From the UHGV virus genome UHGV-0045429: a DNA stretch of 19,258 nt; one strand, written 5' to 3'. Shown piece after piece: positions 4,400 to 19,258 of this stretch. This DNA is from a virus. The notes under the pieces were generated by a model. The model did not search any database. It was not told where the DNA came from and worked only from the letters and a program-made list of their open reading frames with translations. The position numbers and the translations under genes are program-made. The stretch's first letter is position 1; the number at the start of each line of letters is the position of its first letter.

Positions 4400-4406
4400 A
4401 ATAACC

Positions 4407-6463: not shown

Positions 6464-6484
6464 ATTAGGTAATTCTAAATTCTC

Positions 6485-6531
6485 TTGACTTAAATTTCCC
6501 TACGATCTAGTTTCCTTAGGAAAACCTAAGG
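6485..6531 (+). promoter_or_regulatory. Right operator/promoter region (OR analogue) between divergent repressor and cro-like genes
   Basis: TTGACT at 6485-6490; perfect palindrome CCTTAGG-AAAA-CCTAAGG at 6514-6531, overlapping the AAGGAG RBS of the DicC-like gene. Confidence 0.5.
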
Positions 6532-6541
6532 AGATTTAATC

Positions 6542-6766: not shown

Positions 6767-7229
6767 GATCAAGTTACTGGCTATCGAGCTTGAAGAGTGG
6801 GCGATGAAGGATGGCAGGAAAGGGGGCTGGAAAAAGATTGTCCCACTGATTACCTCGCATCACTACGGTGATTTGCTGGATAGCCTGGCAGATATCGTGG
6901 ACCCGTCAGAGTATGTGCGCCGCCTGCATAACAACACGCAGATCATCCAGCGGGCATTTCGAAATGACACGCCGAACTATCGTGGTCAGGCAGCTGCGCT
7001 TGCGCCAGCAATCAGGGCTGCGATGGATGCAGAGCTGGCTGGTCAGCATGACTTACATAACCTGGTGGCCATTGCTAACCGCGAGTGCATCGAGGCGACC
7101 AGTGCGGTGCTGACTGGTAAGCCAATGCAGGTAATCCGCAAAGAAACGTCAGAGGCAATTCAGGCACTGGCCGATCTCATCCCCGGCGTCAGCATCCAGT
7201 TTAACCATATTGGTCCGCGCGCGGCGTAA
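6750..7229 (+). CDS. YdaT-like protein (third gene of the racR-ydaS-ydaT type immunity cluster)
   Basis: 159-aa ORF overlapping the DicC-like stop by 17 nt; AGGAG RBS; central NTQIIQRAFRNDTP...LAPAIRAAMD segment resembles the YdaT family as I recall it. Confidence 0.6.
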   Translation: MMKINEIKLLAIELEEWAMKDGRKGGWKKIVPLITSHHYGDLLDSLADIVDPSEYVRRLHNNTQIIQRAFRNDTPNYRGQAAALAPAIRAAMDAELAGQHDLHNLVAIANRECIEATSAVLTGKPMQVIRKETSEAIQALADLIPGVSIQFNHIGPRAA

Positions 7230-7241
7230 CAGGAGGCTCCC

Positions 7242-7484
7242 ATGCTTGCCCAGGAATTAGTAGACCGCATGAAAAATGCGATGAAGCACAAAGTACCGGC
7301 GGAGACAGTCGATCGCAGCGCTGAACTGATTCCGGGGATGAAATACCGCAACGAACGCGGACGCATGGTGACGGTAATGAGAGTTTCTCATCTTCGGGTT
7401 ATGTACCGATACGAAGGTTATCAGGACATCTGCGAGACAGGCCGGAGAGAGTTTGATTTGAAATTTAAGAAGGTGGAATTGTGA
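7242..7484 (+). CDS. Hypothetical phage protein (80 aa)
   Basis: ATG at 7242 with AGGAGG 5 nt upstream; tightly packed between the YdaT-like and HNH genes. Confidence 0.6.
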   Translation: MLAQELVDRMKNAMKHKVPAETVDRSAELIPGMKYRNERGRMVTVMRVSHLRVMYRYEGYQDICETGRREFDLKFKKVEL

Positions 7485-7486
7485 GT

Positions 7487-7840
7487 ATGAATTGCTGTGG
7501 CTGCCACAATCCTTTGGATGAGGACGAAATCTATAAACTTGCAGAGCGGTGCGGAATTTCGATCTGTGACCGTTGCGCGGGTAAGGTCGAACGCAGCTAT
7601 AACGAATGGCACGGTGGTCCTGGATATTTCCCCAAACCCCCTAAACACCCCCGCAAAAATATCTCACCGGGAGTGAGATTAAAAATTTATCGAAGGGATA
7701 AATACCGCTGTAAATATTGCGGCACCAGTGATGATCTCACCATTGATCATATTCAGCCTGTCTCTAAAGGCGGCGGAAATGAAGATGAAAATCTCCAGAC
7801 CTTATGTCGTGCCTGTAACCGCAGGAAGGGGGCGTCATGA
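7487..7840 (+). CDS. HNH endonuclease
   Basis: Cys-rich N-terminus plus H-N-H core ...DLTIDHIQPVSKGGGNEDENLQTLCRACNRRKG; ATG 7487 preferred over GTG 7481 because AGGTGGA lies 9 nt upstream. Confidence 0.8.
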   Translation: MNCCGCHNPLDEDEIYKLAERCGISICDRCAGKVERSYNEWHGGPGYFPKPPKHPRKNISPGVRLKIYRRDKYRCKYCGTSDDLTIDHIQPVSKGGGNEDENLQTLCRACNRRKGAS

Positions 7841-8772
7841 GCTCACTAATCAAGTTACTCGATCGCCCAGTGGCGTATCAACCAGCATTTGCACAGCTCA
7901 GGGCGGGAAAAGTGAAATCAGGCCCGTCGGCTGCTGTCCTGCTTTCCCAGTTCGTCTACTGGCATAACCGCATGGGCGGTGAGTGGATGTACAAGACGCG
8001 TGAAGACATAAAAAAAGAGACGGGGTTAAGCCGTGATGAGCAGGAAACAGCGAGAAAAAGACTGGTTGCTCTGGGGGTACTACAGGAAGAACTACGAGGG
8101 GTTCCTGCGACTGTACATTACAAAATTAATACCGGGCGTCTGGAGGTACTTTTGCTGGCTCCAGACCAGGCAGAATCACAGATGGGTGCAACGCCGCCAA
8201 CTAGAAAGCGGCAATCCCGCCAACTGGATGGCGGCAACACACCCAACAAGATGGCGGTAACCCCGCCAACAAGCAGGGGGGAATACCGCCAGCAAGATGG
8301 TGGTGATCCCGCCAACTTTCCTACAGGAGATTACACAGAGAGTACTCAGGAGATCACTCAAAGGGCCGGAGATGAATTTTCTGTGGATAACTTTTCTGAC
8401 GAGGACGTGAAATTTTCAGAGTGGTTCTTTGCTCGGGTCGTCGAGATGCATGAGCGAGCTGCTGAGTTTGACGGAACCATGTCACGCCCCGATGAACCTG
8501 ACTGGACTGAATGGGTGGGCGAGGTTCGCCTGCTGCGGGAAGAGCAGGGGTGCGATCACACGCAGATGCGCCGCATGGTTGAGCGCATTCAGGGGGATCC
8601 GTTCTGGTGCCCAAGGGTAAAAACCGCGCACGCCCTGCGGGACAAGTGGGCTGACCTGGTGGTGAGACTGTGCCCAGTGAGCTTGGCTGATCCGCCGCGA
8701 CAATCCACTTTCGACGATGAATATTACAAAAACGATTCTGAGTCCGCTGCGAAAGCAGGTTTCAGGATCTGA
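7837..8772 (+). CDS. Phage replication initiator (lambda O-like replisome organiser) with origin iterons inside the coding sequence
   Basis: 311-aa ORF, ATGA overlap with the HNH stop; N-terminal winged-helix-like segment (LLSQFVYWHNRMGGEWMYKTREDIKKETGLSRDEQETARKRLVALGVL); tandem DNA repeats in the middle of the gene encode the repetitive linker. Confidence 0.65.
   Translation: MSSLIKLLDRPVAYQPAFAQLRAGKVKSGPSAAVLLSQFVYWHNRMGGEWMYKTREDIKKETGLSRDEQETARKRLVALGVLQEELRGVPATVHYKINTGRLEVLLLAPDQAESQMGATPPTRKRQSRQLDGGNTPNKMAVTPPTSRGEYRQQDGGDPANFPTGDYTESTQEITQRAGDEFSVDNFSDEDVKFSEWFFARVVEMHERAAEFDGTMSRPDEPDWTEWVGEVRLLREEQGCDHTQMRRMVERIQGDPFWCPRVKTAHALRDKWADLVVRLCPVSLADPPRQSTFDDEYYKNDSESAAKAGFRI
8190..8320. 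repeat. Iteron-like direct repeats (putative replication origin)
   Basis: CCCGCCAAC at 8216-8224, 8262-8270 and 8308-8316 (plus CCGCCAAC at 8194-8201), each preceded by GATGG(C/T)GG at 8227, 8250 and 8295; unit about 22-24 bp; CCGCCA/TGGCGG gives internal dyad symmetry. Confidence 0.6.
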
Positions 8773-8800
8773 GAGAACTGAATTTAACCTGGAGAATTTT

Positions 8801-9463
8801 ATGGAAACCATTTTAGACGTACTGAAAGCGATGGAAAAAGCGACTGCCCGTGAAATTGCGGCGCGCATGAAAATTGAGCCGGCGGCGGTGATCGGGATGC
8901 TGCGTGAGCACGAAGAGCGTAATGAGGCTGTTCAGGCTAACGGGTACTGGAAAGTTGCCACCGGGGAAGTTAAATCACAGCCAAAAGCGATCAGTTCTTT
9001 CAGCAAAGCGCCGGTAAGTGTATCAGTCAGCGACGTCATCGCATTACTGGCGGAACATGGGCCACAGACATCCCTTGAGCTGGCAACACTGGCAGGTATT
9101 GAGTCAAAACGTGTGGCGCCAATGCTGACTCACCACATGACAAAAGGGCGGATCATCCGCGAAAAAGTAGGCAGCAAGTTTGTTTATTCGGTGCCGGCCA
9201 CTGCGTCAGTGAAAAACAAAAGCTCTGCACCACGGGAACCGGAAACATCAACACCACTGGTACCAGAAAAATCTGTCACTGAAATTGTTGAGGAAATCCC
9301 CGCTTTCGTCAGCCGTCCTGATGATCTGCTGATCCCAACGGTACGCGGTATCTCAAGTGAAATTCGGCGCACAAAAGCGAAGCTGGCTAACCTGGAAAAA
9401 CTTCGTGAAGCCGTTCGCAGCATTCGCAAACACGGCGCGCTGATGCAGGAGCTGGCGCAATGA
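8801..9463 (+). CDS. Hypothetical protein with two tandem winged-helix-like segments
   Basis: Start taken at METILDVLKAMEK (GGAG RBS); two similar blocks (ILDVLKAMEKATAREIAARMKIEPAAVIGML... and VIALLAEHGPQTSLELATLAGIESKRVAPML...). No Walker motif, so not a DnaC/P-type helicase loader. Confidence 0.6.
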   Translation: METILDVLKAMEKATAREIAARMKIEPAAVIGMLREHEERNEAVQANGYWKVATGEVKSQPKAISSFSKAPVSVSVSDVIALLAEHGPQTSLELATLAGIESKRVAPMLTHHMTKGRIIREKVGSKFVYSVPATASVKNKSSAPREPETSTPLVPEKSVTEIVEEIPAFVSRPDDLLIPTVRGISSEIRRTKAKLANLEKLREAVRSIRKHGALMQELAQ

Positions 9464-9684
9464 AACAGTCTGAGTTACCGCGCTGTCCGGCCTGCGGAAA
9501 TATGCCCGAATACGCGCTAAAGCCAAACCATATGGGATGGGTATGGGGTGGATTGAAATGTCCGTATGACCATTACCGCGTGAATTTGGATGGTCCAGCC
9601 GGTAGCCGCGTGCAGGCAGAAAAAAAGCTGGCGCCACAGTGGATTGAACTGGTCGAGAAAGCTAATCAGGAGAAATCAGCGTGA
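9460..9684 (+). CDS. Small zinc-ribbon protein, possibly Lar-type restriction alleviation family
   Basis: 74-aa ORF; AGGAG RBS; LPRCPACGN...GLKCPYDHY (C-x2-C ... C-x3-H) pattern. Family call is tentative. Confidence 0.5.
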   Translation: MKQSELPRCPACGNMPEYALKPNHMGWVWGGLKCPYDHYRVNLDGPAGSRVQAEKKLAPQWIELVEKANQEKSA

Positions 9685-10043
9685 AACCAACCTACGAAGA
9701 ACTGACAGTACAGCTCGCTAACGCCGAGAGCAAGTGCAGGGAGCTGGTGGTGGAATGTTCGACAATCAAAGCCATGAGCGATTGCCTGTCTGAAGAGCTG
9801 CGTGGTTATGAATCTGATGGGGCGTTTGAAGGACCGAAGATGCATCTACTGTGGTGGAAAGCAGAAACTCCCGCGACCGACGCTTTCCTGGCTGAAGTGC
9901 GGGCGCAGGTCCACAAGGAAGGTGCTCACTTTGTAGCAAATAGAATGCTGGCCGCCACTCTTTTTGTTTTCGTTATCCTCAATGCACCCGCATGTAACCC
10001 GCTTCGGCGGGTTAGCTTCTTCTATCTGAGATTTTGTTGCTAA
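9681..10043 (+). CDS. Hypothetical protein (N-terminal coiled-coil-like, hydrophobic C-terminus)
   Basis: GTG start with AGGAG 9 nt upstream, overlapping the previous stop. The C-terminal ~15 codons read through hairpin 9996-10013, so the 3' end may be a fusion artefact. Confidence 0.45.
   Translation: MKPTYEELTVQLANAESKCRELVVECSTIKAMSDCLSEELRGYESDGAFEGPKMHLLWWKAETPATDAFLAEVRAQVHKEGAHFVANRMLAATLFVFVILNAPACNPLRRVSFFYLRFCC
9996..10013 (+). terminator. Hairpin AACCCGC-TTCG-GCGGGTT (copy a of a repeated terminator-type stem-loop); weak U-tract
   Basis: Perfect 7-bp stem with tetraloop; identical 18-mer recurs at 17742-17759. Confidence 0.4.
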
Positions 10044-10205
10044 ACGCAGTCTTACCGTTCTATCTGCAGGCATTGAGTAACTAAGTTCAAATGTTACATT
10101 GATCACGTTTTTTAACGTCTCAAAACCTCATTGGTATTGAGTTCCTTTGTGGTAATGATTTTGTTGGATAAAATAGCCAATATCTCAAGGAGTAGGTAAC
10201 CACTA

Positions 10206-10559
10206 ATGATCAATGATGTTAAAAATGCAAAAATTGAAGAATATTTCACCGTTCTAAAAGAAAAGAGCAGACCTCCAAGCAAAGGTGGGAACACAAAGGC
10301 TCTGCATGCCCACTACATTAAAATTGATGGAATGTTATACAGTTTTCTCGCGTTCGGTTCTAAGCAATGGATTTTCAAAACCGACCGAGTATCATTTAAG
10401 TTCGAAATGAACGGCGAATACAGGAATATTCTCCGGGAATCCATTAGCACTATTGATAGCAATGGGGAAGTAGTAATCAGAGGGTTGCGTGGTTTTAGCA
10501 AGAAGATAAGGACTGCTGATACGCGTTTACCAGCATCCAGAAGGGAATGCAGGGATTGA
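10206..10559 (+). CDS. Hypothetical protein (117 aa) in AT-rich cargo cassette
   Basis: ATG at 10206 with AAGGAG upstream; AT-rich codon usage unlike the flanking phage core (by eye); no family recognised. Confidence 0.6.
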   Translation: MINDVKNAKIEEYFTVLKEKSRPPSKGGNTKALHAHYIKIDGMLYSFLAFGSKQWIFKTDRVSFKFEMNGEYRNILRESISTIDSNGEVVIRGLRGFSKKIRTADTRLPASRRECRD

Positions 10560-10712
10560 ATATGTAATTTGTGTCGAATTTGCAATCATTAGCTAGCAAA
10601 TTGAATAAGTAACATAATAATTTTCATGAATAATATGAATAAAAAACCAGGATGACATACTAGGTGTTTCCGGTATCTTATCTATATATTATTTACGTTC
10701 AAGTGACTTTAA

Positions 10713-10874
10713 ATGACTGGCCAGCAACTTACTGAGCTCGAAATCGCTTATGGTGGGGAAGCTTACTCAGATAATGAAATTGATGCGAAAACAGTAGCTA
10801 AATCACTAAAGGATGTTGAACATTCAATGTCAGTGCATTCAAACGCCCTTCAAAGCGACGCTGATAAGTCTTAA
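10713..10874 (+). CDS. Small acidic ORF (53 aa) below the ORF-track threshold
   Basis: ATG 10713 to TAA 10872-10874 (MTGQQLTELEIAYGGEAYSDNEIDAKTVAKSLKDVEHSMSVHSNALQSDADKS), ending directly before terminator b; weak RBS. Confidence 0.3.
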   Translation: MTGQQLTELEIAYGGEAYSDNEIDAKTVAKSLKDVEHSMSVHSNALQSDADKS

Positions 10875-10889
10875 AGTTCGTGTACTGCT

Positions 10890-10912
10890 AACCCGCTACG
10901 GCGGGTTTTTTT
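10890..10912 (+). terminator. Rho-independent terminator (copy b): AACCCGC-TACG-GCGGGTT plus T7
   Basis: Perfect 7-bp GC-rich stem, tetraloop, run of seven T. Confidence 0.75.
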
Positions 10913-10968
10913 ATGCCCCTTACCAATAAATAATTAACCTGAATTATTGTAAATTATTGAGGTTTGTT

Positions 10969-11607
10969 ATGGGTGGCATTTTCGATGAATCATGGTCTGA
11001 GCAATTTACTCAACGCGTTGAGGCTTTGCGTAAACTGGATGATCAGTCCGTTACTCAACCGCTTTTCAGAGAAAAAGCGGATCTGATTTTTACTCAAATG
11101 GCTGACCGTGTTCGTTCGCGTACGCGACAGCAGCTCGGAGAAATCGACGTTAGCGGGATAACATTTGATTACGCAATCCGCTATTACGTTAATCACGACA
11201 CTGGTGATCCGGTTCTGGATCACCTTGTGTCCAGGGTAGGGCCATTCTGTGACCAGATGAAGATCAGCACGGAGGCGTACGGCACAGCGGCGTTCTGCTG
11301 CGCGCTCATGATGTTGAAAGGCGAGTTGCGTATAGCGTATGCATTTTTCAGCATGCTGATGCGCCCGCTCGTTTCTGCGTACAGGTATAACACCGACGCG
11401 AAACGACGTGGCTCTGCTGGTGGGCGCCCGACAAATCCACTTAAAAACGAGGCACTGGAACTGGCGCGGGTATTTACAAAATCCTATCCTGATTCAACGA
11501 TGGTGGCTGTTGTTAACGCCGTCATTTCTGACCTTGAATCTCACTACGTTGGCACTCCGTCAGCACGCACAATAAAGCGCTGGATTCAGCAGGACCGGAA
11601 AAAATAA
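10969..11607 (+). CDS. Hypothetical protein with C-terminal resolvase-type HTH-like segment (putative DNA-binding regulator)
   Basis: ATG 10969 (GAGG RBS; the track start at 10957 is a TTG). C-terminal GGRPTNPLKNEALELARVF...TPSARTIKRWIQQ resembles the GRP-led HTH of serine recombinases, but no recombinase catalytic domain is present. Confidence 0.55.
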   Translation: MGGIFDESWSEQFTQRVEALRKLDDQSVTQPLFREKADLIFTQMADRVRSRTRQQLGEIDVSGITFDYAIRYYVNHDTGDPVLDHLVSRVGPFCDQMKISTEAYGTAAFCCALMMLKGELRIAYAFFSMLMRPLVSAYRYNTDAKRRGSAGGRPTNPLKNEALELARVFTKSYPDSTMVAVVNAVISDLESHYVGTPSARTIKRWIQQDRKK

Positions 11608-11614
11608 CCCCTCC

Positions 11615-11660
11615 GGACAAAACCTTCTTTTGTCGGCATAACCTGGTTTTGTCCGTTTTA
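11615..11660 (+). terminator. Terminator-like hairpin: GGACAAAACC ... GGTTTTGTCC followed by GTTTTATC
   Basis: 10-bp perfect inverted repeat (11615-11624 / 11645-11654) downstream of the 212-aa ORF. Confidence 0.5.
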
Positions 11661-11700
11661 TCATCAAAAAAAATACGTAGAATCCGTCTCACACTTTTTG

Positions 11701-11745
11701 TTGAGACATCTCCCGGATGAGGTGATACTGTTTATATATACAGTA
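11701..11745 (+). promoter_or_regulatory. SOS-regulated promoter: near-consensus LexA box TACTGTTTATATATACAGTA overlapping the -10 element
   Basis: CTG-N10-CAG at 11728-11743; 19/20 match to the E. coli LexA consensus TACTGTATATATATACAGTA; TTGAGA (-35, 11701-11706) and GATACT (-10, 11724-11729) with 17-bp spacing. Confidence 0.65.
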
Positions 11746-11773
11746 TTTGGTCTCTGAATTATCGGGAGATAAT

Positions 11774-11974
11774 ATGCAAATAACTAATGAATTAGTGCCT
11801 GGTGCCTCGGCCCACACAGGACCAGTTTTAATTCAACTGGTGGCGGGTGAAGTGCAAGGTGGCTTTATTTTAAGAGATGATGAATTTGTCACATCTATCT
11901 CCACACTAAATGAAACAAGAATTATGGCCGGATTAGACCCCGCGCCTTTTACCCGATCCCTAACTGATTTATAA
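11774..11974 (+). CDS. Small protein (66 aa) under the LexA box; candidate SOS-induced antirepressor
   Basis: ATG 11774 with GGGAGA RBS, 28 nt downstream of the LexA box; MQITNELVPGASAHTGPVLIQLVAGEVQGGF... No family recognised; function inferred from context only. Confidence 0.5.
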   Translation: MQITNELVPGASAHTGPVLIQLVAGEVQGGFILRDDEFVTSISTLNETRIMAGLDPAPFTRSLTDL

Positions 11975-12036
11975 TAATCACTCGCGAGCGTGAACAACTC
12001 GCAGCTGAGTAACACTGCGCCAACCGGAAATAAACG

Positions 12037-12351
12037 ATGGCGCGTAAAAAATCGTATATAACCAAAGCCGAGCAACAGCACCTCGATCGCGTAGCGTCGT
12101 TGGGTTGTTGTGTCTGCAAAAATCTTGGTTACCCCGACTCTCCAGCGGGGATTCATCATATCCGAACCGGGCAGGGTGCAAGCCAGCGCTCCAGCCATTT
12201 CGAAACTCTGCCGTTATGCGCTGCCCACCACCAGACGGGTGGCTATGGCATTGCTTATCACGCTGGCCCTGAGATATGGGCGAAAAAATACGGCACCGAA
12301 ACTGAGCTATTAATTCAGGTTACGTCAGATTTAAACGGGGACTGGTCATGA
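12037..12351 (+). CDS. YbcO-like nin-region protein (putative nuclease, Cys/His-rich)
   Basis: 104-aa ORF directly upstream of and overlapping rusA, as ybcO-rusA in DLP12; CCVCKN...HHIR...PLCAAHH metal-binding-like pattern. Confidence 0.6.
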   Translation: MARKKSYITKAEQQHLDRVASLGCCVCKNLGYPDSPAGIHHIRTGQGASQRSSHFETLPLCAAHHQTGGYGIAYHAGPEIWAKKYGTETELLIQVTSDLNGDWS

Positions 12352-12707
12352 CCCGTTACCCCGTAACTCCAATCGGCAAACCCCGAATGACAAGAGCCGA
12401 CAAATGGAAGCAGCGCCCGCCGGTGCTCCGTTATCGTGTTTTCTGCGACGAGGTGCGCCTGCATGAAATCGTTCTGCCTGAAAGCGGCGCCCACGTTATT
12501 TTTGTTCTGCCAATGCCAGCGAGCTGGAGCCAGAAAAAACGCGCCAGCATGAACGGACAGCCTCACCAGCAAAAACCGGATATAGACAACCTCACCAAAT
12601 CCCTCATGGATGCCATTTACGACGACGACGCCCACATTTGGGACGTCCGTGCATCAAAAATCTGGGGTGATGAAGGCGCGATTATTATTCAGGAGGGCAA
12701 GGCGTGA
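12348..12707 (+). CDS. rusA: RusA-family Holliday junction resolvase
   Basis: 119-aa ORF; ...KPDIDNLTKSLMDAIYDDDAHIWD... matches the RusA acidic catalytic region as I recall it. Confidence 0.8.
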   Translation: MTRYPVTPIGKPRMTRADKWKQRPPVLRYRVFCDEVRLHEIVLPESGAHVIFVLPMPASWSQKKRASMNGQPHQQKPDIDNLTKSLMDAIYDDDAHIWDVRASKIWGDEGAIIIQEGKA

Positions 12708-14245
12708 TGCCCTTAACATACGGATCCGTATGCAGCGGAATTGAGGCAGCGAGTGTGGCGTGGGAGGTATTGGGCTGGCGGCCGTCATGGTTTTCTCAGT
12801 TCGATCCGGAACACAATTACAAAAACGGTCCTGATTTCCCGTCTGCGGTGCTGGCGCATCACTGGCCGCACGTAAAAAACCTTGGCGATATGACAAAAAT
12901 CGCCGCAGCAATCCGGCTCGGAGAAATTGAAGCGCCCGACGTTCTGGTAGGTGGTACTCCCTGCCAGGCATTCAGCATTGCTGGACTGCGTAATGGCCTG
13001 ACGGATTCACGCGGCCAACTAACCCTCGCTTTTGTAGAACTGGTAAACGCAATTGATGAAAAACGAAGAGAACAGGGAAAACCACCCGTCATTGTCGTCT
13101 GGGAAAATGTCCCCGGAGTATTCAGCAGCAGAGATAACGCTTTCGGATGTTTTCTTGCAGGGCTTGCCGGCGAAAGCCGTGAACTGGAATCACCAGGGCG
13201 AAAATGGACAAACGCTGGTTATGTGCTGGGACCAGAAAGGGCTGTCTGCTGGCGAGTGCTCGACGCTCAATTTTTCGGAGTGGCCCAACGACGCCGCCGT
13301 GTGTTTGTTATCGCAAGCGCTAGAGGGGATATCGATCCCGCAAAAATACTTTTTGAGTCCGAAGGCATGCGCCGGGATACTCCGCCGCGCAGAGAAACGG
13401 GGGAGATCGTTGCCGCCCTTATTGCAAACGGCGTTGGAGTGTGTGGCGCAGACGATAATCAGGGGCAGGCAGGGCACCTGATTGCCATGGCGCACGGACA
13501 GGCAGGGGCAGAAATTAAAACGGATGATTCCGCGCCTACGCTTACCTGTAACCATGAAGCGCCTATTGTTTTTAGCTGTAATGGACACGCATCGTTTACG
13601 CCGGGAGTCAGTGCTCTGCGAACTAAATCAGGCGCAGACCATGAAACGCTGGCTGTTCATGGTACGCAAGATCCCGACACTTTAAAGAACCTGGCACATA
13701 CGCTGGGTCGAAACCATGGGCAAGAGAATGCCGTTGCCTACTGTCTCCAGCATGCACAAATTAACCGGGCAGATAACGCTGGCCCACAGGGTAAAGGATG
13801 GCAAGAAGAATGCAGATTCACTCTGGATTCTCGTTCTTGTGCTGATGCAGTCGCTTATGCCTTCAAGGCCGGGCAGGGCGCAAAAGCGGGTGGCATTGGC
13901 TGGGCAGAGGAACAATCCCCGACACTGACGGCCGCCAGCAGTGGATCGAATTTATCCCCTTCAGTGGTGAAAAATATGGCCGTTCGCCGCCTTACTCCTG
14001 TCGAATGTGAACGCCTGCAGGGCTTCCCCGATAACCACACTTTAATCCCCCGTGATAAGCGTAAGCAGATTACTGCTGATGAGTACGCATACGCGCGCCA
14101 CCACAACCCAAAAATAACCGCAGAGGAAGCCTACAGGCTGGCGAAGGATGGTCCGCGCTATAAGGCCATTGGTAACAGCATGGCCGTACCGGTTATGCGC
14201 TGGATAGGAAGGCGAATCTCTAACGCTCTGGAGCAGACAATATGA
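12707..14245 (+). CDS. Orphan DNA (cytosine-5) methyltransferase
   Basis: Motif I-like YGSVCSGIEAA, motif IV GGTPCQAFSIAG, motif VI VVWENVPG, QRRRRVF, C-terminal RRLTPVECERLQGFPDNHT and GNSMAVPV; large variable region between. AGGAGGG RBS; start overlaps the rusA stop. No adjacent restriction endonuclease ORF. Confidence 0.9.
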   Translation: MPLTYGSVCSGIEAASVAWEVLGWRPSWFSQFDPEHNYKNGPDFPSAVLAHHWPHVKNLGDMTKIAAAIRLGEIEAPDVLVGGTPCQAFSIAGLRNGLTDSRGQLTLAFVELVNAIDEKRREQGKPPVIVVWENVPGVFSSRDNAFGCFLAGLAGESRELESPGRKWTNAGYVLGPERAVCWRVLDAQFFGVAQRRRRVFVIASARGDIDPAKILFESEGMRRDTPPRRETGEIVAALIANGVGVCGADDNQGQAGHLIAMAHGQAGAEIKTDDSAPTLTCNHEAPIVFSCNGHASFTPGVSALRTKSGADHETLAVHGTQDPDTLKNLAHTLGRNHGQENAVAYCLQHAQINRADNAGPQGKGWQEECRFTLDSRSCADAVAYAFKAGQGAKAGGIGWAEEQSPTLTAASSGSNLSPSVVKNMAVRRLTPVECERLQGFPDNHTLIPRDKRKQITADEYAYARHHNPKITAEEAYRLAKDGPRYKAIGNSMAVPVMRWIGRRISNALEQTI

Positions 14246-14877
14246 TGACCCCACGACAAAAACGAGCTCACAAATCAGCACTGGAACATGCGGCAGCCGC
14301 ACCGAATAAGCGCTGGCTGGGGAAATCAATACTGCTCACCGGTATTCAGTCAGCCTGGATCAAATCGCTACTCTGTGTTTGGGGTGAAAGTATTCGCGGT
14401 GGAATGGCACCAGGAACGCCGAAAGGCCACGCGTGCTGGCGGTCGCTAAAGGGTATGCGCTGGTCCGATAAATCGCTCGAGCGTTTTACAGAGGCACTGA
14501 CTCAGGCGAGAGGTGAGGGATTTAAAGGCGAGCTGGCGTTAAAACGTGCACACGCGATTCTCTGGCCCACAAAACCGGTTAGCGTTATCGACGAGGCTAT
14601 AACGGACGATGATGCAGATTTTATGGAAGCGTGCGTGCTGGAGGCGTTTGAAACAACGGATCCGGTTTACGTTATTGGGGTGAGCTACTACACGACGAGG
14701 AAAAAAATCTCGGACCTGACCCGGGATATTCAGCAGATAGCCCCCAGGCTGACTCCGGATGAGGCAAGAAAGCGCGTGCGCTGGTGTGTTGAAATATTCG
14801 GGGCGCGCGTGTATCTGGAGGCACGCCGTCAGTTACACGCTGATTTACAGAAATCAGAATCTGGCGGGAAAATATGA
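14242..14877 (+). CDS. Putative late-gene antiterminator (Q-like); assignment from position and size
   Basis: 211-aa ORF overlapping the MTase stop; GGAG RBS; sits where Q lies in lambdoid genomes (after the nin/rusA block). Family membership not confirmed by any motif. Confidence 0.45.
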   Translation: MMTPRQKRAHKSALEHAAAAPNKRWLGKSILLTGIQSAWIKSLLCVWGESIRGGMAPGTPKGHACWRSLKGMRWSDKSLERFTEALTQARGEGFKGELALKRAHAILWPTKPVSVIDEAITDDDADFMEACVLEAFETTDPVYVIGVSYYTTRKKISDLTRDIQQIAPRLTPDEARKRVRWCVEIFGARVYLEARRQLHADLQKSESGGKI

Positions 14878-15037
14878 TTTTTGAAATAGAAAATAAGCCG
14901 AATTAATTCAATAAAAATATATAATTACAAATGCCAACATGATTGCATTTGTGTTGGTTATAGTAATTGATTTGTTATATGAAAATGAAATGCTTATAAC
15001 AATCCGCGAAGAATAAAATTAATATATCGAGGACATA

Positions 15038-15334
15038 ATGAAAGAACTATCAGCAAAAGATTTACTACATAAATATTCAAGCCCGCTTGATTCAGTAAGC
15101 CTATTTAACGCAATGCATCTCGCTGGTTTAATTGAAGTAAAGGAATATATTTCCTCGACAGGAAGTGGTGAGATTAAGACCTATCGATCGCTAACTGAGA
15201 GCGGTTTGAAGTATGGGATCAATAAAAGATCTAGTTATAGTGATGCAACTGACTTAAAGTTTTTTCCTTCAAACTTCCATGAATTGTTGGTATTGGTATC
15301 AAAGGAGATTTTGAAGCATTCAGAGATGCTTTAA
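15038..15334 (+). CDS. Hypothetical protein (98 aa) in AT-rich cargo
   Basis: ATG 15038 with GAGGA RBS; preceded by a 160-bp AT-rich promoter-like region directly after the Q-like gene. Confidence 0.5.
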   Translation: MKELSAKDLLHKYSSPLDSVSLFNAMHLAGLIEVKEYISSTGSGEIKTYRSLTESGLKYGINKRSSYSDATDLKFFPSNFHELLVLVSKEILKHSEML

Positions 15335-15415
15335 GGTTTTGATTGAAATCGATGTAGTGGAAAAGAAAACCTCGGCCTGGCAACCGGGGTTCTATAGCGC
15401 GCAAACTTTACCTTT

Positions 15416-15628
15416 TTAGCGTGATTTTTTTCGTTTGAAAAACTCGTAAATTTCGATGCCAACAATAGCGATGGCGTAAAAAGGCCAAAGAAAAGAGGTT
15501 CTAACCGTATCCAGCAGGTCAAATTCCATATCGAGTATTCGATCCGCATGAACCAACAGTGCGAACATCACGATAAATCCCGCGACGTTTAAGGCTAGGT
15601 AAAGATAGAGACTCATGGCTAAATCCAT
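15416..15628 (-). CDS. Small hydrophobic (membrane) protein, convergent with the 98-aa ORF
   Basis: 70-aa ORF; two predicted hydrophobic helices (LYLYLALNVAGFIVMFALLV and FLWPFYAIAIVGIEI) and basic C-terminus KRKKSR; weak RBS. Confidence 0.45.
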   Translation of the reverse strand: MDLAMSLYLYLALNVAGFIVMFALLVHADRILDMEFDLLDTVRTSFLWPFYAIAIVGIEIYEFFKRKKSR

Positions 15629-15812
15629 TTATTAAGGTTTGCTGTGAGTCTACGTGCGATAACCACACAATTAAAAATTGGTATTACAGATCGATTTATC
15701 TTTATCGATCGTTGAAAACGATCGTCATGACACAAATAGCTTAGTGATTGATTGTTATTTAATCAGTTGGAGCCAATTATTTAGTAATTAGTGCTTATTT
15801 TATTAAGCGGCA

Positions 15813-15840
15813 TTGAAAACGAGCCATATTTATTGATAAT
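15813..15840 (+). promoter_or_regulatory. Sigma70-type promoter: TTGAAA (-35), 16-bp spacer, GATAAT (-10)
   Basis: TTGAAA at 15813-15818 and GATAAT at 15835-15840; predicted start about 15847. Confidence 0.4.
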
Positions 15841-15847
15841 TACCTCA

Positions 15848-15935
15848 TGCTTGGCAGAGCTGCGCCACGATGGCAGCGACGATAAGCGAACAATTTGAAC
15901 ATAACGAGAACCCCGCCAGCGCGGGGTTTTTGCTT
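15848..15935 (+). ncRNA. Candidate ~90-nt small RNA or late-leader transcript (promoter to intrinsic terminator, no credible ORF)
   Basis: Only a 12-codon ORF without RBS lies between the promoter and terminator; internal GCTGC...GCAGC stem. Entirely a sequence-based prediction. Confidence 0.3.
15909..15935 (+). terminator. Rho-independent terminator: CCCCGC-CAGC-GCGGGG plus T5
   Basis: Stem 15911-15916 / 15921-15926 followed by TTTTT at 15927-15931. Confidence 0.7.
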
Positions 15936-15946
15936 TCCGGCGATCC

Positions 15947-15989
15947 GACAGGGGTATTCGCGAACGTGCTACGGCACAGTACCCCTGTC
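15947..15989. repeat. 10-bp perfect inverted repeat GACAGGGGTA ... TACCCCTGTC (23-nt spacer)
   Basis: Arms at 15947-15956 and 15980-15989, immediately downstream of the terminator. Confidence 0.45.
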
Positions 15990-16175
15990 AGATCGTCGTT
16001 ATGGTTACTTCTATATGTCAGTTTAGGCCGACATCATTTGTGCCTATCCTTCTGGTCTATTGGATGAGTCAAACGTACCTTGAATGAGGATTGTAGGTGC
16101 CAGCCCGTAAGCCCTGCGGCATGGGGCTTAGTCGAAAAAACACCTCTTTTTTGCAACTTTTTATCACGTTTTCCC

Positions 16176-16223
16176 GTGACAAGATCCTGTTTACTGTTAG
16201 AATCACTCCACATGATTCATGTG
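16176..16223 (+). promoter_or_regulatory. Promoter of the two-gene operon with operator-like palindrome
   Basis: GTGACA (-35, 16176-16181), 16-bp spacer, extended -10 TGtTAGAAT (16195-16203); palindrome CACATG-ATT-CATGTG at 16209-16223 at the predicted start site. Confidence 0.4.
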
Positions 16224-16280
16224 ATGTGAATCTTTTAAAAAAAATAAAAACACATCTATTTCAACGAGTAAGCTCAAAAA

Positions 16281-17045
16281 ATGCAGGCTCAACCCAAGAC
16301 TAAACACCAAGAGTTGGTCGAGACGCTATCATTATATATAGACTCGCGAACCCCGTTAGAAGAACCTCTTTTGGGTGAAATCTTTCGCGATATCAATAAA
16401 CAGTCCGGTGCGTCTCGTGCGTATCTCATGGCTTTGTGGATGGAAGTTCAGAACAGACATGATGAGACAGTGGAATGGTATCTAGAGGCGATAGCTACTT
16501 CTGGTGAGCTCGCTTCTGTTGTCGCAGGTAACTATCTGAGTTATCTGAGTTGCTCAGCGCACAATCTTTTTCACAGAACAGAATTGTTCCGATTGGTAGA
16601 TATATATTGTACTAAGCGGATAAGAAAAATGGCCAGGAATGCAGCATTTTGCATGGGAAATGACCGGCTTGTTAACCGATTCACTGTGATGATGAAGGCT
16701 TTACTCGACGGCCAAGAGCGGGAAGAAATTGAGCGTGAGGGGGCAAAAATGGTGGAAGCTATTGTTACTTTTAAAGAAGCCACTAAGCTAACTTCATCTG
16801 AAATCCAGCAGTTGTGTGATTCAGCCGAACAGATTGCAAATAGCCACGGCGTGAATTGCGCTGGTGTTGAATATTTTCTGAGTGGTGGATATGACAACGC
16901 CATAATCCTATTTGCAGAAACCAGCGACGCTAGCACACTTACCACTATGAACATGGAACTCATAGGTTTGCTTGCTGATGATGCCTATATCGATCGTCCA
17001 TTTACCTCATGGTTTAAGAGCGCAGATATGAAGGATAGGATCTAA
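16281..17045 (+). CDS. Hypothetical protein (254 aa), first gene of cargo operon; no recognisable catalytic motif
   Basis: ATG 16281; stop TAA overlaps the start of the downstream gene (TAATG); lower GC than the phage core by eye; no Walker or nucleotidyltransferase motif. Confidence 0.7.
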   Translation: MQAQPKTKHQELVETLSLYIDSRTPLEEPLLGEIFRDINKQSGASRAYLMALWMEVQNRHDETVEWYLEAIATSGELASVVAGNYLSYLSCSAHNLFHRTELFRLVDIYCTKRIRKMARNAAFCMGNDRLVNRFTVMMKALLDGQEREEIEREGAKMVEAIVTFKEATKLTSSEIQQLCDSAEQIANSHGVNCAGVEYFLSGGYDNAIILFAETSDASTLTTMNMELIGLLADDAYIDRPFTSWFKSADMKDRI

Positions 17046-17446
17046 TGAGCGTATCAGGTCAAGATTTCATTGATTTTGCAGAGAAATGTCTCGATTTCGG
17101 TGATGAGATAGGCTTCAGGAACGTAGTTGGACGCTCCTACTATGGTGTTTACCATGAGATCTGCAGTAAACTTGAGCATTGCTATGTATTGACCTCTCAT
17201 GAGGGGGTGCGTCAGTATCTTATGAGCTCTTCACAGTGTAAAAATGAGCCGTTTGATAAAGCCGGGCTGAGGAGGATTGGTGTTTTCCTTCATAGTCTTC
17301 ACGTGCAAAGAAAGTGGGCTGATTACACACTTCAGCGCGATTTGGTTAAAACTGATGCTGAGTCGGCGCTCAATACTGCGAAACAAGTAATGGATGAAAT
17401 TAAGGCGTTGCATGAGGCAGTTTACCCTCCTCAGCCAGCAGCATAA
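17045..17446 (+). CDS. HEPN-like protein (133 aa) with N-terminal R-x6-H motif; candidate RNase toxin/effector
   Basis: GRSYYGVYH (R30 at 17132-17134, H37 at 17153-17155) fits the HEPN Rx4-6H signature; AGGA RBS; translationally coupled to the upstream gene; followed by terminator c. Confidence 0.65.
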   Translation: MSVSGQDFIDFAEKCLDFGDEIGFRNVVGRSYYGVYHEICSKLEHCYVLTSHEGVRQYLMSSSQCKNEPFDKAGLRRIGVFLHSLHVQRKWADYTLQRDLVKTDAESALNTAKQVMDEIKALHEAVYPPQPAA

Positions 17447-17460
17447 CTCACCAATTATTG

Positions 17461-17488
17461 AAACCCGCTACGGCGGGTTTTCTTTTTC
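17461..17488 (+). terminator. Rho-independent terminator (copy c): AACCCGC-TACG-GCGGGTT plus T-rich tail
   Basis: 18-mer identical to copy b (10890-10907); followed by TTTTCTTTTTC. Confidence 0.75.
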
Positions 17489-17541
17489 GCTTCATCAATT
17501 CCTGCTACGATTCCCTGTCTTTTACTGATGGGGATAGGGAT

Positions 17542-17709
17542 ATGAAGAAAGTTCTTGTTGTTTTATTGGTGTCACTTTTCTCACTGACAGCAACGGCAGC
17601 AAACAAGCCATGCTCAGGTAAGAAAGGCGGAATATCGCATTGTTCGGGTGAAAAGTTTGTTTGCAATGATGGCTCTATCAGCAAGTCTAAGAAGGTTTGT
17701 CAGAAATAG
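17542..17709 (+). CDS. Small secreted Cys-rich, Lys-rich protein (55 aa) with signal peptide
   Basis: Start at MKKVLVVLLVSLFSLTATAA (signal-peptide-like) then NKPCSGKKGGISHCSGEKFVCNDGSISKSKKVCQK (4 Cys). The track ORF from 17458 reads through terminator c and is an over-extension. Confidence 0.55.
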   Translation: MKKVLVVLLVSLFSLTATAANKPCSGKKGGISHCSGEKFVCNDGSISKSKKVCQK

Positions 17710-17740
17710 TTATTAATAAATAGCACTCGCCATCAAAATC

Positions 17741-17763
17741 AAACCCGCTTCGGCGGGTTTTTC
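17741..17763 (+). terminator. Rho-independent terminator (copy d): AACCCGC-TTCG-GCGGGTT plus T5
   Basis: 18-mer identical to copy a (9996-10013). Confidence 0.75.
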
Positions 17764-17828
17764 ACTCTCTAACGGATATGTTATTTTCATGCAATAAGAG
17801 CGATTAGTAAGATGCTGCTGGGGAGAAC

Positions 17829-17990
17829 ATGGATTCAACGGACGACGAAGAGAAACGCATAGAATTTGAAAAATTCATCATTGAAAGGTTTGGTGATACG
17901 GTTGACCTTCGCAGGGCGAAGCATGGCAATAACGGATATATTTCATGGGAAGCGGCGGTTGCTTGGGTTGTCTGGCAGGAGCGCTCATAG
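17829..17990 (+). CDS. Small ORF (53 aa) below the ORF-track threshold
   Basis: ATG 17829 to TAG 17988-17990, GGGAG 3 nt upstream; MDSTDDEEKRIEFEKFIIERFGDTVDLRRAKHGNNGYISWEAAVAWVVWQERS. Reads more coherently than the overlapping 83-aa track ORF. Confidence 0.4.
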   Translation: MDSTDDEEKRIEFEKFIIERFGDTVDLRRAKHGNNGYISWEAAVAWVVWQERS

Positions 17991-18319
17991 CACCATGAAA
18001 CAACGTCTACCTCTAGCGGGCGCTGATTTATTATGGCGCTGCCCGGAGCGTCCCGTCATTCACTATGGACTCCCACTTGGCAACGTCGTTTTAGAATTTG
18101 ATTTTGGTCCGCTATGAGCTGTGAGTTCAACTGATGGACGCAACACACTTATTGAACCGCTCTGCAGGATGGCTCGGAACCTGGATTATTATTCCAGAGA
18201 TTAGCGCTGGCTTTTTTCTCGCTTTCAGGCAGCAGAATGAGGCCAATTTTTAACACCCGACCATGGCTTGCACGGCCGGGTAATGGCTAAGAATGCGCGT
18301 AAACAAAAGGTTATGCCAC

Positions 18320-19258
18320 TTATGTGCCTAAATGTTTATTAAAGAATGGAATAATCTCCGATAGCGCTTGTGCCGTCGCTTCCGGACGATCATACAGATC
18401 ATAGTGAGATACCCCTTTCACAACCTGCAGCGTCTTCTCAACGGAGCGCGCGCGCTGATAAAGTTCATAACCGTCGCGATAAGAACCAAAACCACCAGGA
18501 ACATCGCCAATAACAATATGTAATGGTTGTATCAGTAGCTTTTCCGTAAAGGCAAAAGCATCCCAGTTTAAGGCCGGTGCGGTGCTGGTAAGTCGCAGTT
18601 TGTTAGGCGAGCCTGGCTTTTGCCCGCGCGGGGTCGTGTAGTAATCAACGGCCTCAATGAGGTCGATATCGTTGATGTTCGCATTCGCCAACGCTTCTGC
18701 ATTGTCAGGAATATAACCGACAACAAGAGCAGCGGCTCCCCGAGCTTCAGCAGTACGCTGTTTACCCAGCGCGTCAATCGTTCTGAGCGCGGCATCCGGA
18801 CTGGAATCCCCTTCACGCATAATGCGCCCATAATTGGCGGCAACCACAGTGGCAACGGCTTTGAAACGGTGATCAATGGTAGCGGCGCTAACGGCATATC
18901 CACCGCCGCCACAAACGCCTAAAACCCCAATACGATCTTCATCCACGTAGGCTAAAGTCACCAGATAGTCTATCGCGCAGCGAAAGTCTTCCACGCGGAT
19001 GGATGGATTTTCGCTAAAGCGTGGCTCACCCCCGCTTTCACCCTGGGTAGAGGCATCGAAAGCAAGAGTAATAAATCCAGCTTCAGTTAGCTTCTGGCCG
19101 TAGACTGCGCCAGATGTCTGTTCTTTACAACTGCTGATAGGATGGGCGCAAACAATCGCCGGGTATTTCTGGTTGGCATCAAATCCCTCAGGTAAGCGGA
19201 GAGTGGCGGCAACTTGCCAGCTGTTGTGCCGGAATGAAACGAGTTGTTCATGAGACAT
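18320..19258 (-). CDS. Alpha/beta hydrolase of the dienelactone-hydrolase type (Cys nucleophile)
   Basis: 312-aa ORF; nucleophile elbow GVLGVCGGGGYA (G-x-C-x-G-G). The start codon lies at the last three bases of the window, so the upstream region is not visible. Confidence 0.8.
   Translation of the reverse strand: MSHEQLVSFRHNSWQVAATLRLPEGFDANQKYPAIVCAHPISSCKEQTSGAVYGQKLTEAGFITLAFDASTQGESGGEPRFSENPSIRVEDFRCAIDYLVTLAYVDEDRIGVLGVCGGGGYAVSAATIDHRFKAVATVVAANYGRIMREGDSSPDAALRTIDALGKQRTAEARGAAALVVGYIPDNAEALANANINDIDLIEAVDYYTTPRGQKPGSPNKLRLTSTAPALNWDAFAFTEKLLIQPLHIVIGDVPGGFGSYRDGYELYQRARSVEKTLQVVKGVSHYDLYDRPEATAQALSEIIPFFNKHLGT

What the first reader, a model, noticed from the sequence alone, without database searches (positions are those of the whole stretch)
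9996..17763. Four copies of one terminator hairpin (two identical pairs) marking cargo cassette boundaries
AACCCGC-TTCG-GCGGGTT occurs at 9996 and 17742, and AACCCGC-TACG-GCGGGTT at 10890 and 17462. Each is an 18-mer identical within its pair, differing by one loop base between pairs. They bracket the AT-rich nin cassette and the secreted-peptide gene and close the HEPN-like operon. Such identical short repeats are potential sites of illegitimate or homologous exchange that shuffle moron cassettes.
Basis: seen in the sequence. Interest (0 to 1): 0.4.

Follow-up and report, generated by a model that had tools for sequence, protein, structure and literature searches.

The report
Reused terminator hairpin bounding prophage gene cassettes
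Four copies of a standard bacterial transcription-stop hairpin sit exactly where extra gene cassettes have been spliced into a defective lambda-like prophage, and related prophages suggest this short shared hairpin is the point where cassettes are swapped, which is a known idea seen here in a small, clear form.

Summary
AACCCGCTTCGGCGGGTT lies at 9996 and 17742, and AACCCGCTACGGCGGGTT at 10890 and 17462, all on the + strand. No shuffle of the window produced any copy.

The hairpin is not a window-specific repeat. The same 18-mer is the terminator hairpin of E. coli rpoC and rpsI. A 30-nt query around it matches 2-13 places in every one of 5,426 E. coli genomes. It is also in more than 120 viral contigs, about 95% of them with a T-run after it.

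Copies 2-4 are ordinary Rho-independent terminators. Copy 1 has no T-run and is a relic of a hok mRNA 3' end.

The cassette-boundary reading holds:
- Citrobacter-type relatives have hok, then one hairpin, then the 212-aa gene. The window has hairpin, 876 bp of AT-rich cargo, hairpin at that site.
- The 301-bp ydcA cassette, hairpin to hairpin, occurs in at least five other flanking contexts.
- A prophage at the same chromosomal site is 99.8% identical to the right of copy 3 and unrelated to the left of it.
- At the equivalent hok site in other prophages, three different cargos sit between two hairpins, against about 95 empty sites.

The closest analogues are lambdoid morons, Botstein linkers and the T4-type PeSL cassettes. 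Interest is moderate.

The parts
9952..9995 (+). Relic of the 3' untranslated end of a hok-family toxin mRNA. The hok ORF itself is missing.
   Evidence: 82.8% identical to the sequence between hok (PF01848) and its terminator in L376, and 81.3% in L377 and L379. Positions 9975-10013 are 86-95% identical (92% in most) to the hok 3' end in 27 viral loci.
9996..10013 (+). Hairpin copy 1 (AACCCGC-TTCG-GCGGGTT). It is followed by AGCTTCTTC with no U-tract and lies inside ORF 9681-10043.
   Evidence: Homology to hok loci stops exactly at 10013 in 25 of the 27 hok-bearing loci and runs 8-17 nt further in the other two.
10014..10889 (+). AT-rich cargo of 876 bp at 35-39% GC. It holds ORF 10206-10559 (117 aa, no family) and ORF 10713-10874, a 53-aa N-terminal fragment of a roughly 300-aa family.
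   Evidence: It is absent from L376, L377 and L379, where a single hairpin occupies the site.
10890..10914 (+). Hairpin copy 2 (loop TACG) plus T7, an intrinsic terminator 15 nt after the stop codon at 10874.
   Evidence: Homology to relatives of the 212-aa gene begins at 10888. The 30 nt 10888-10917 are 100% identical in T1-like Shigella phages.
10969..11607 (+). 212-aa nin-region gene (phrog_5215), the conserved right flank of the insertion site.
15813..15928 (+). Promoter-like site (TTGAAA-16-GATAAT) followed about 70 nt later by a fifth related hairpin with a T-run. This looks like a pR'/tR' late-promoter unit downstream of the Q-like gene (14242-14877).
   Evidence: The 15809-15999 region is conserved downstream of Q homologues.
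16108..17461 (+). Two-gene module (254 aa, 16281-17045; 133 aa, 17045-17446) of unknown function. Copy 3 is its terminator.
   Evidence: Ten relatives carry the module, each followed by a terminator of varying sequence. Homology to the two relatives whose alignment reaches the hairpin (L207, L208) stops at 17481-17484, and in the others it ends at or before the stop codon.
17462..17487 (+). Hairpin copy 3 (loop TACG) plus TTCTTTTT, an intrinsic terminator and a sharp mosaic junction.
   Evidence: Identity to L225 switches from none to 100% at base 17462. Fourteen other ydcA cassettes start at the same base or within a few bases.
17542..17709 (+). ydcA-family gene, a 55-aa protein with a signal-peptide-like N-terminus.
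   Evidence: (PF27300).
17742..17764 (+). Hairpin copy 4 (loop TTCG) plus T5, an intrinsic terminator and the right boundary of the ydcA cassette. It also scores as terminator-like on the - strand.
   Evidence: Cassette homology ends at 17762 in 7 of the 10 loci. Homology to E. coli L002 starts at 17742.
17829..18119 (+). 53-aa ORF module (17829-17990). It ends at a junction at 18119 that has no hairpin. The alpha/beta-hydrolase gene beyond it (18320-19258, - strand) has no phage-family match, so the prophage lacks lysis and structural genes.

Best explanation
The four 18-mers are instances of one very common, strong Rho-independent terminator hairpin. It has a five-pair G+C core closed on a C(UNCG)G tetraloop and extended by A:U pairs. 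Copies 2, 3 and 4 carry a U-tract and end rightward transcripts: a truncated cargo ORF, the 254/133-aa module, and ydcA. Copy 1 is the stem-loop of a former hok mRNA terminator whose U-tract was replaced when cargo was inserted. Many independently transcribed accessory cassettes in lambdoid nin regions end with this same hairpin. It therefore supplies 18-26 bp of identity between otherwise unrelated sequences, and crossovers between co-linear phage or prophage genomes, or capture of excised circles, occur within it. The result is 'hairpin-cargo-hairpin' where relatives have a single hairpin. What is shown: hairpin structure and U-tracts, identity to characterised terminators, exact coincidence with homology breakpoints, and empty versus filled sites. 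What is inferred: that the hairpin's sequence identity drives the exchange rather than merely marking where junctions survive, and which recombinase acts (phage annealing proteins or RecA).
For: Terminator identity:
- All four copies fold as stable stem-loops, and copies 2-4 have T-runs.
- The same hairpin followed by T7 ends rpoC and rpsI in E. coli.
- It is in three natural E. coli terminators of a published parts list: ECK120010869, ECK120015170 and ECK120010818 (PMC7843447).
- 101 of 106 distinct viral contexts have at least 4 T in the next 6 nt.
- All 15 copies in 80 Q-selected prophage loci are co-oriented with Q.
- The variant AACTCGC...GCGGGTT keeps pairing only on the sense strand through a G.U wobble (-9.2 against -3.5 kcal/mol). 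Loop variants are UUCG, UACG and UCCG, all UNCG. Both point to selection on the RNA.

Junctions in the window:
- L376 has hok, one hairpin, then the 212-aa gene. Window 9952-10013 matches its left flank plus hairpin, and window 10888-12041 matches hairpin plus right flank. The two matches overlap only in the hairpin.
- L225, a prophage at the same chromosomal site, is 99.8% identical over 17462-19258 and unrelated immediately to the left.
- Homology to the ydcA cassette spans exactly 17462-17762 in 7 loci. Across the ydcA cassettes examined there are three left contexts and four right contexts.

Independent site in other prophages:
- 118 loci were selected only by a right-flank sequence. All are preceded by a hairpin of this type (exact 18-mer in 88).
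- About 95 are hok-hairpin-flank, the empty state.
- 13, 2 and 5 loci carry three unrelated cargos between two hairpins: a lipoprotein, a Fic/Doc-like pair and an XRE+ImmA-like pair.
- In L094 the repeat flanking the insert is 23 bp.
- The T-run after the left hairpin differs between cargos, so the junction lies at or inside the stem.
Against: - The shared identity is 18-26 bp, at or below the roughly 30 bp quoted as the minimum for RecA or Red recombination (PMC2327257, PMC3945230).
- A junction inside a sequence common to both parents cannot be placed. Selection for intact transcription units would also favour junctions next to terminators.
- Some junctions next to hairpins truncate genes and are clearly illegitimate.
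- Other sharp junctions in the window, at 9750 and 18119, have no hairpin.
- The cargo after copy 1 starts without a T-run, which a simple terminator-to-terminator exchange does not predict.
- No empty site was found for the ydcA cassette itself.
- No termination or recombination was measured.
Confidence: 0.65

Rival explanations
1. The hairpins are only terminators. Their identity reflects convergence on an optimal design, and junctions sit beside them because illegitimate recombination is random and only events that keep whole transcription units survive (the moron-accretion view). The hairpin sequence plays no part in recombination.
For: The same 18-mer ends unrelated core genes (rpoC, rpsI) and occurs in T1-like virulent phages, so it arises or spreads independently of cassettes. 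Orthologous terminators after the 133-aa gene differ in sequence. Gene-truncating junctions abut hairpins. Other junctions lack hairpins. [quoted passage not shown]
Against: Four independent cargos enter at the same few bases next to the stem: three at the hok|R0 site and one in the window. Each ends in the same hairpin, and the right-hand T-run is that of the empty site. Unrelated flanks abut both the 5' and the 3' edge of the hairpin with no spacer. At copy 3, relatives of both flanking sequences carry a hairpin at the junction position.
Confidence: 0.28
2. The hairpin is the recognition site of a dedicated cassette-mobility system. This could be site-specific or structure-specific, like integron attC sites, REP/RAYT elements or hairpin-targeting IS200/IS605 transposases.
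For: The hairpin-cargo-hairpin against single-hairpin topology, with a repeated insertion hotspot at the hok terminator, resembles an integron.
Against: The sequence is identical to housekeeping terminators. It is 18 bp, perfectly paired, and has no conserved flanking boxes. Orientation and T-runs follow transcription. No candidate recombinase is consistently nearby. The window has only the phage integrase, RusA and a RecA-dependent nuclease, and loci carrying ydcA cassettes have varied neighbours.
Confidence: 0.04
3. The four copies are a dispersed repeat family (a MITE, REP or ERIC type element), or the pairs arose by duplication within this prophage.
For: Two exactly identical pairs lie within 8 kb.
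Against: There is no similarity outside the hairpin and the first T residues. Each copy has its own lineage: copy 1 with hok relics, copy 2 with the 212-aa gene flank, and copies 3 and 4 with the ydcA cassette. Loop type varies between orthologues.
Confidence: 0.03

Closest known systems
Rho-independent terminators of E. coli rpoC (rpoBC operon) and rpsI (rplM-rpsI operon), listed as parts ECK120010869, ECK120015170 and ECK120010818
   Same: The hairpin AACCCGCTTCGGCGGGTT is identical and is followed by a T-run, with the C(UUCG)G tetraloop.
   Different: Those are single terminators of core operons. Here four copies are concentrated in 8 kb of prophage accessory DNA, two have a UACG loop, and one has lost its U-tract.
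Morons of lambdoid phages (Juhala/Hendrix; review PMC3594210)
   Same: Extra genes of deviant G+C content that are absent from relatives and carry their own terminator.
   Different: The moron model leaves the insertion mechanism undefined and does not give the regulatory elements a role in mobility. Here the junctions map to the terminator itself. A promoter for the cargo or for ydcA was not detected.
PeSL promoter/stem-loop cassettes of T4-type phages (Arbiol et al. 2010, PMC2839356; Comeau et al. 2014, PMC4122927)
   Same: A repeated terminator stem-loop lies between otherwise unrelated sequences. An ORF is flanked by two copies in one genome and replaced by a single copy in a relative. The element is proposed to act as a linker for homologous exchange.
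   Different: PeSLs are composite, combining a sigma-70 promoter with a stem-loop, and are conserved over about 100 bp. They occur in virulent myoviruses, and mini-circles were shown physically. Here only 18-26 bp of terminator without a promoter is shared, the setting is temperate lambdoid prophages, and there is no physical evidence.
Botstein 'linker' model and relaxed homologous recombination between phages and defective prophages (Martinsohn 2008, PMC2327257; De Paepe 2014, PMC3945230)
   Same: Exchange between a defective prophage and another lambdoid genome at limited homology. The window differs from L225 by a replaced block of 7.7 kb against 4.2 kb, with its left end in a shared gene and its right end at copy 3.
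   Different: Those experiments used homologies of hundreds of bp, with identity runs of 11-298 bp, and quote a minimum of about 30 bp. The identity here is shorter.
hok/sok type I toxin-antitoxin loci of lambdoid prophages (for example hokW-sokW, PMC8621323)
   Same: Copy 1 and the 44 nt before it match the 3' end and terminator of hok-family mRNAs that sit at the same nin-region position in relatives.
   Different: The window has no hok ORF and no Sok region. Only the 3' relic remains, and it has no U-tract.

Membership tests
Rho-independent (intrinsic) terminator | Stable G+C-rich RNA stem-loop | tested here: met
   All four copies have 7-9 bp stems with a UNCG loop. The 51-55 nt stretches around them fold at -12.8 to -17.2 kcal/mol.
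Rho-independent (intrinsic) terminator | U-rich tract immediately 3' of the stem | tested here: met
   Copies 2, 3 and 4 are followed by TTTTTTTAT, TTTTCTTTTT and TTTTTCAC. This is not met for copy 1, which is followed by AGCTTCTTC, so copy 1 is not filed as a terminator.
Rho-independent (intrinsic) terminator | Lies just downstream of, and co-oriented with, a coding region | tested here: met
   Copies 2, 3 and 4 lie 15, 15 and 32 nt after stop codons. All 15 copies in related loci are co-oriented with Q. Copy 1 lies inside an ORF.
Rho-independent (intrinsic) terminator | Measured termination of transcription | not testable with these tools
   There is only indirect support. The identical hairpin with a T-run is in natural E. 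coli terminators used as characterised parts.
Moron (lambdoid accessory transcription unit) | Present in one genome, absent at the same site in close relatives, with deviant G+C | tested here: met
   The cargo 10014-10889 is 35-39% GC and absent from L376, L377 and L379. The ydcA cassette is present or absent in many contexts.
Moron (lambdoid accessory transcription unit) | Own promoter and own terminator | tested here: inconclusive
   Terminators are present (copies 2 and 4). The consensus scan finds only a 9/12 promoter-like site at 10652-10679, and none before 10206 or between copy 3 and ydcA.
PeSL-type mobile regulatory cassette | Composite repeat of a sigma-70 promoter plus stem-loop, conserved over about 100 bp | tested here: not met
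   Conservation between copies is limited to the hairpin plus a few T, 18-26 bp in all. Flanks are unrelated and there is no promoter. The element works like a PeSL but is not one.
PeSL-type mobile regulatory cassette | Cargo flanked by two copies where a relative has one copy | tested here: met
   Window against L376. L094 and other loci against about 95 empty sites.
PeSL-type mobile regulatory cassette | Circular excision products | not testable with these tools
   This needs outward-facing PCR or long reads from induced cultures.
Integron attC / REP-type recombination site | Imperfect palindrome with conserved boxes, and an associated dedicated recombinase | tested here: not met
   The hairpin is a perfect 7-bp stem with a 4-nt loop and no conserved flanks. 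No integron integrase or RAYT matched among the window ORFs scanned, and neighbours of other copies vary.
hok/sok locus | Hok ORF (PF01848) with an upstream antisense RNA region and a 3' fold-back end with terminator | tested here: not met
   Only the 3' end (9952-10013) is present. No Hok-like ORF was seen in the ORF list, homology to hok loci covers only 9952-10013, and there is no Rfam hit. It is a relic.

The most novel reading that the evidence does not exclude
A bare terminator hairpin of 18-26 bp acts as a universal, portable linker in lambdoid prophages. Cassettes that end in it can be excised as circles and captured at any resident copy. The hok terminator is a hotspot, so nin regions would behave like recombinase-independent 'integrons', with the transcription terminator serving as the attachment site.
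Probability: 0.25. Interest if true: 0.6.

Novelty: new variant of a known kind. Interest (0 to 1): 0.4.

Why it matters
There is a long-running debate over whether phage mosaicism arises by random illegitimate joining followed by selection, or by exchange at short shared sequences. This locus and its relatives give a compact natural test case. One fully characterised terminator recurs at both edges of several unrelated accessory cassettes (toxin-antitoxin-like, lipoprotein, small secreted protein), and clean empty sites exist. If the terminator is the crossover point, accessory and defence genes in prophages could spread to any genome that uses the same terminator. It would also mean a regulatory element is selected twice, once for transcription and once for mobility. 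That hypothesis can be tested directly with simple crosses. If the terminator is not the crossover point, the finding is an ordinary set of moron terminators.

Tried and rejected
- Rfam gathering scan of the window: no hits.
- Viral-contig search with the 216-aa ORF: no relatives. Relatives were later found by protein search and exact look-up.
The best match was 89% (Mixta theicola), so the species was not identified. Those 585 kb of chromosome contain no copy of the 18-mer. The source assembly is GCA_902363475.1. The nearest named homologue of the 212-aa protein is from Citrobacter freundii, which is only a hint.
- Four left-flank clusters before the dinI leader looked like independent junctions. 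They all end in AATTC and appear to be diverged copies of one methyltransferase 3' end, so they were not counted.
- An exact empty site for the ydcA cassette was sought and not found in the sample.
- Reassortment of the left and right flanks of ydcA could happen inside the 301-bp cassette itself, so it was not used as evidence for crossovers in hairpins.
- 'HEPN-like' was checked against Pfam (E up to 5), PADLOC and NCBIfam. No support was found, and it was not pursued by structure prediction.
- DNA searches of the AT-rich cargo against E. coli genomes and phages returned only an 81-nt stretch in one E. coli genome and the hairpin itself.

Full report
**What the window is**

The window is a lambdoid prophage. 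It is 100% identical over 4206-16559 to assembly GCA_902363475.1, contig CABJAD010000001.1. From left to right it holds:
- a response-regulator gene (1-675, - strand);
- an integrase (746-2035, - strand);
- a cI-like repressor (6047-6463, - strand), followed by cro- and cII-like genes and replication genes;
- an Ea22/EaE-like ORF (9681-10043);
- a nin region with a RecA-dependent nuclease, RusA and a Dcm-type methylase;
- a Q-like antiterminator (14242-14877);
- a promoter-like site with a short terminated leader (15813-15928);
- a two-gene module of unknown function (16281-17446);
- a YdcA-family gene (17542-17709);
- a 53-aa ORF (17829-17990);
- an alpha/beta-hydrolase gene with no phage-family match (18320-19258, - strand).

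No lysis or structural genes follow Q, so the prophage is defective.

**The observation**

The four 18-mers are at 9996, 10890, 17462 and 17742, all on the + strand. Loops are TTCG, TACG, TACG and TTCG respectively. No shuffle of the window produced a copy. Each folds as a 7-9 bp stem with a UNCG tetraloop. Similarity between copies ends with the hairpin and the first T residues. A fifth hairpin of the same build, AACCCCGC-CAGC-GCGGGGTT, lies at 15909-15928.

**What the hairpin is**

It is not specific to this element.
- A 30-nt query around copy 4 matches all 5,426 complete E. coli genomes, at 2-13 places each with a median of 5.
- The exact 18-mer followed by T7 is the terminator after rpoC and after rpsI.
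- The same sequences are listed as natural E. coli terminator parts ECK120010869, ECK120015170 and ECK120010818 (PMC7843447).
- More than 120 viral contigs carry the 18-mer, in 106 distinct flank contexts. In 101 of these, at least 4 of the next 6 nt are T.
- T1-like virulent Shigella phages carry copy 2 with its tail exactly.
- Eighty prophage loci were chosen only by homology to the Q-like protein (1.43 Mb). They hold 15 copies, all co-oriented with Q, and 14 of them lie upstream of Q in the nin region.
- Variants at orthologous positions keep pairing through G.U wobbles on the sense strand only, and loops stay within UNCG. This points to selection on the RNA.

Copies 2, 3 and 4 have U-tracts and lie 15-32 nt after stop codons, so they are ordinary intrinsic terminators. 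Copy 1 is followed by AGCTTCTTC and lies inside ORF 9681-10043.

**Copy 1 is a hok relic, and copies 1 and 2 bracket an insertion**

Positions 9975-10013 are 86-95% identical (92% in most) to the 3' end of hok-family loci in 27 viral contigs.

Relatives of the 212-aa gene (10969-11607) were found by protein search and exact look-up. In L376, L377 and L379 a Hok gene (PF01848) is followed by a single hairpin and then that gene. The hairpin is the exact AACCCGCTACGGCGGGTT in L376 and differs by one base in L377 and L379.

Window 9952-10013 aligns with the left flank plus the hairpin of L376. Window 10888-12041 aligns with the hairpin plus the right flank. The two alignments overlap only in the single hairpin. 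The window is therefore the filled state of that site. It holds 876 bp of 35-39% GC cargo between two hairpin copies, and the hok gene itself has been lost.

The cargo holds a 117-aa ORF without a family. It also holds a 53-aa ORF that matches only the first ~45 residues of families of about 300 aa. One end of the cargo is therefore a truncation.

**Copies 3 and 4**

The exact YdcA protein is listed in 457 blocks of the collection. In ten places with different neighbours:
- homology to the window runs exactly 17462-17762 in seven;
- it runs from 17462 or 17457 to 18119 in two;
- it runs from 17462 to the end of the window, at 99.8% identity, in L225.

L225 is a defective prophage at the same chromosomal site. 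To the left of the hairpin it has a methyltransferase remnant and a TonB-receptor gene instead of the Q region. L225 also shares 8778-9750 with the window, so the two differ by a replaced block whose right end is copy 3.

The two-gene module to the left of copy 3 is followed by a terminator in all ten relatives examined. The stem and loop vary between them. Homology to the window stops at 17481-17484 in the two relatives whose alignment reaches the hairpin. So relatives of both flanking sequences carry a hairpin at the junction position.

An E. coli prophage matches 17742-18119, starting at copy 4.

Across all ydcA cassettes examined there are three left contexts and four right contexts. One right context is a truncated methyltransferase gene.

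**An independent test at another site**

Viral contigs were selected only by a sequence downstream of the common hok site. This gave 118 instances, and all are preceded by a hairpin of this type (exact 18-mer in 88).
- About 95 have hok-hairpin-flank, the empty state.
- 13 have a 664-bp insert encoding a lipoprotein.
- 2 have an insert of about 850 bp with a Fic/Doc-like pair.
- 5 have a 1,348-bp insert with an XRE plus ImmA/IrrE-like pair.

Each insert lies between the hok hairpin and a second hairpin. In L094 the direct repeat is 23 bp. The T-run after the right hairpin is that of the empty site, while the one after the left hairpin belongs to each cargo. The junctions therefore lie at or inside the stem.

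**Mechanism**

The best-supported reading is that the terminator does its normal job and also serves as a short linker for exchange between co-linear genomes, or for capture of excised cassettes, because so many cassettes share it.

The strongest counter-argument is length. The shared identity is 18-26 bp, against a quoted minimum of about 30 bp for RecA or Red. A second caveat is that a junction inside a sequence both parents share cannot be located, and selection for whole transcription units also places junctions near terminators. Gene-truncating junctions next to hairpins, and junctions without hairpins at 9750 and 18119, show that other processes act as well.

I put the linker mechanism at about 0.65 and the selection-only view at about 0.28. 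A dedicated hairpin-recognising recombinase and a dispersed repeat family are both unlikely, given the identity to housekeeping terminators, the lack of conserved flanks, and the varied neighbours.

**Comparison with known systems**

- The hairpin is an already characterised terminator.
- The cassettes fit the moron concept (PMC3594210), although promoters were not detected.
- The closest mechanistic precedent is the PeSL of T4-type phages. These are repeated promoter/stem-loop cassettes that flank variable ORFs, occur once at the empty site, and form mini-circles (PMC2839356, PMC4122927). [quoted passage not shown] The present data suggest that in lambdoid nin regions they can be. The repeat here lacks the promoter and the roughly 100-bp conservation that define a PeSL, so it is an analogue and not a member.
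- The replacement relative to L225 matches the phage-defective prophage exchanges described by De Paepe et al. (PMC3945230).

**Verdict**

It is a new variant of a known kind, of moderate interest.

Noticed in passing
window 14878-18319: The prophage is defective. After the Q-like gene come only accessory modules and then a hydrolase gene with no phage-family match. There are no lysis or structural genes. L225 and L220 share the same right end (ydcA, 53-aa ORF, junction at 18119) but lack Q altogether.
   Followed up: partly
window 15813-15928: A promoter-like site is followed about 70 nt later by a terminator hairpin. It sits in a segment conserved downstream of Q homologues and in Citrobacter phage Chris1, and is probably a pR'/tR' unit producing a short leader RNA. 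In the window it is separated from Q by about 930 nt of 29-38% GC DNA that holds a 98-aa ORF (15038-15334), which looks like another insertion.
   Followed up: partly
window 10206-10559: A 117-aa ORF in the AT-rich cargo has no match in Pfam, PHROGs, PADLOC or NCBIfam. Its exact sequence is on only two contigs of the collection.
   Followed up: partly
window 10713-10874: A 53-aa ORF matches only the N-terminal ~45 residues of families of about 300 aa (PDC-S42, a candidate defence family; LAPAL; phrog_3243). It is a truncated gene ending 15 nt before hairpin copy 2.
   Followed up: partly
window 9681-10043: An Ea22/EaE-like ORF has homology to relatives that ends near residue 93. Its last ~28 codons read through the hok relic and hairpin copy 1, so it is a fusion ORF created by the junctions at about 9952 and 10013.
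   Followed up: partly
viral loci L009, L014, L025, L026, L030, L032, L075, L076, L069, L104, L113, L122 and others: In many unrelated viral contigs the hairpin is followed by a longer recurring string, TTTTTAT(G/T)CC(C/T)GGAG, then 5-8 nt, then ATG. That is a terminator joined to a ribosome-binding site and start codon. It could be a longer shared linker in some phage groups.
   Followed up: no
L376 1-1241: The Citrobacter-type relative with the empty site carries KwaA/KwaB (Kiwa defence) genes and an integrase-family gene just upstream of hok.
   Followed up: no
L222 5921-6363 and L001 3001-3444: Three copies of the hairpin lie within 425 bp: hairpin, ydcA, hairpin, 125-bp methyltransferase 3' fragment, hairpin, dinI. 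This is a dense stack of cassette boundaries.
   Followed up: partly
window 2531-4435 (- strand): A 634-aa early-left-operon protein has no hit in my Pfam scan. The precomputed annotation for the identical locus lists YdfE_N/YdfE_C.
   Followed up: no
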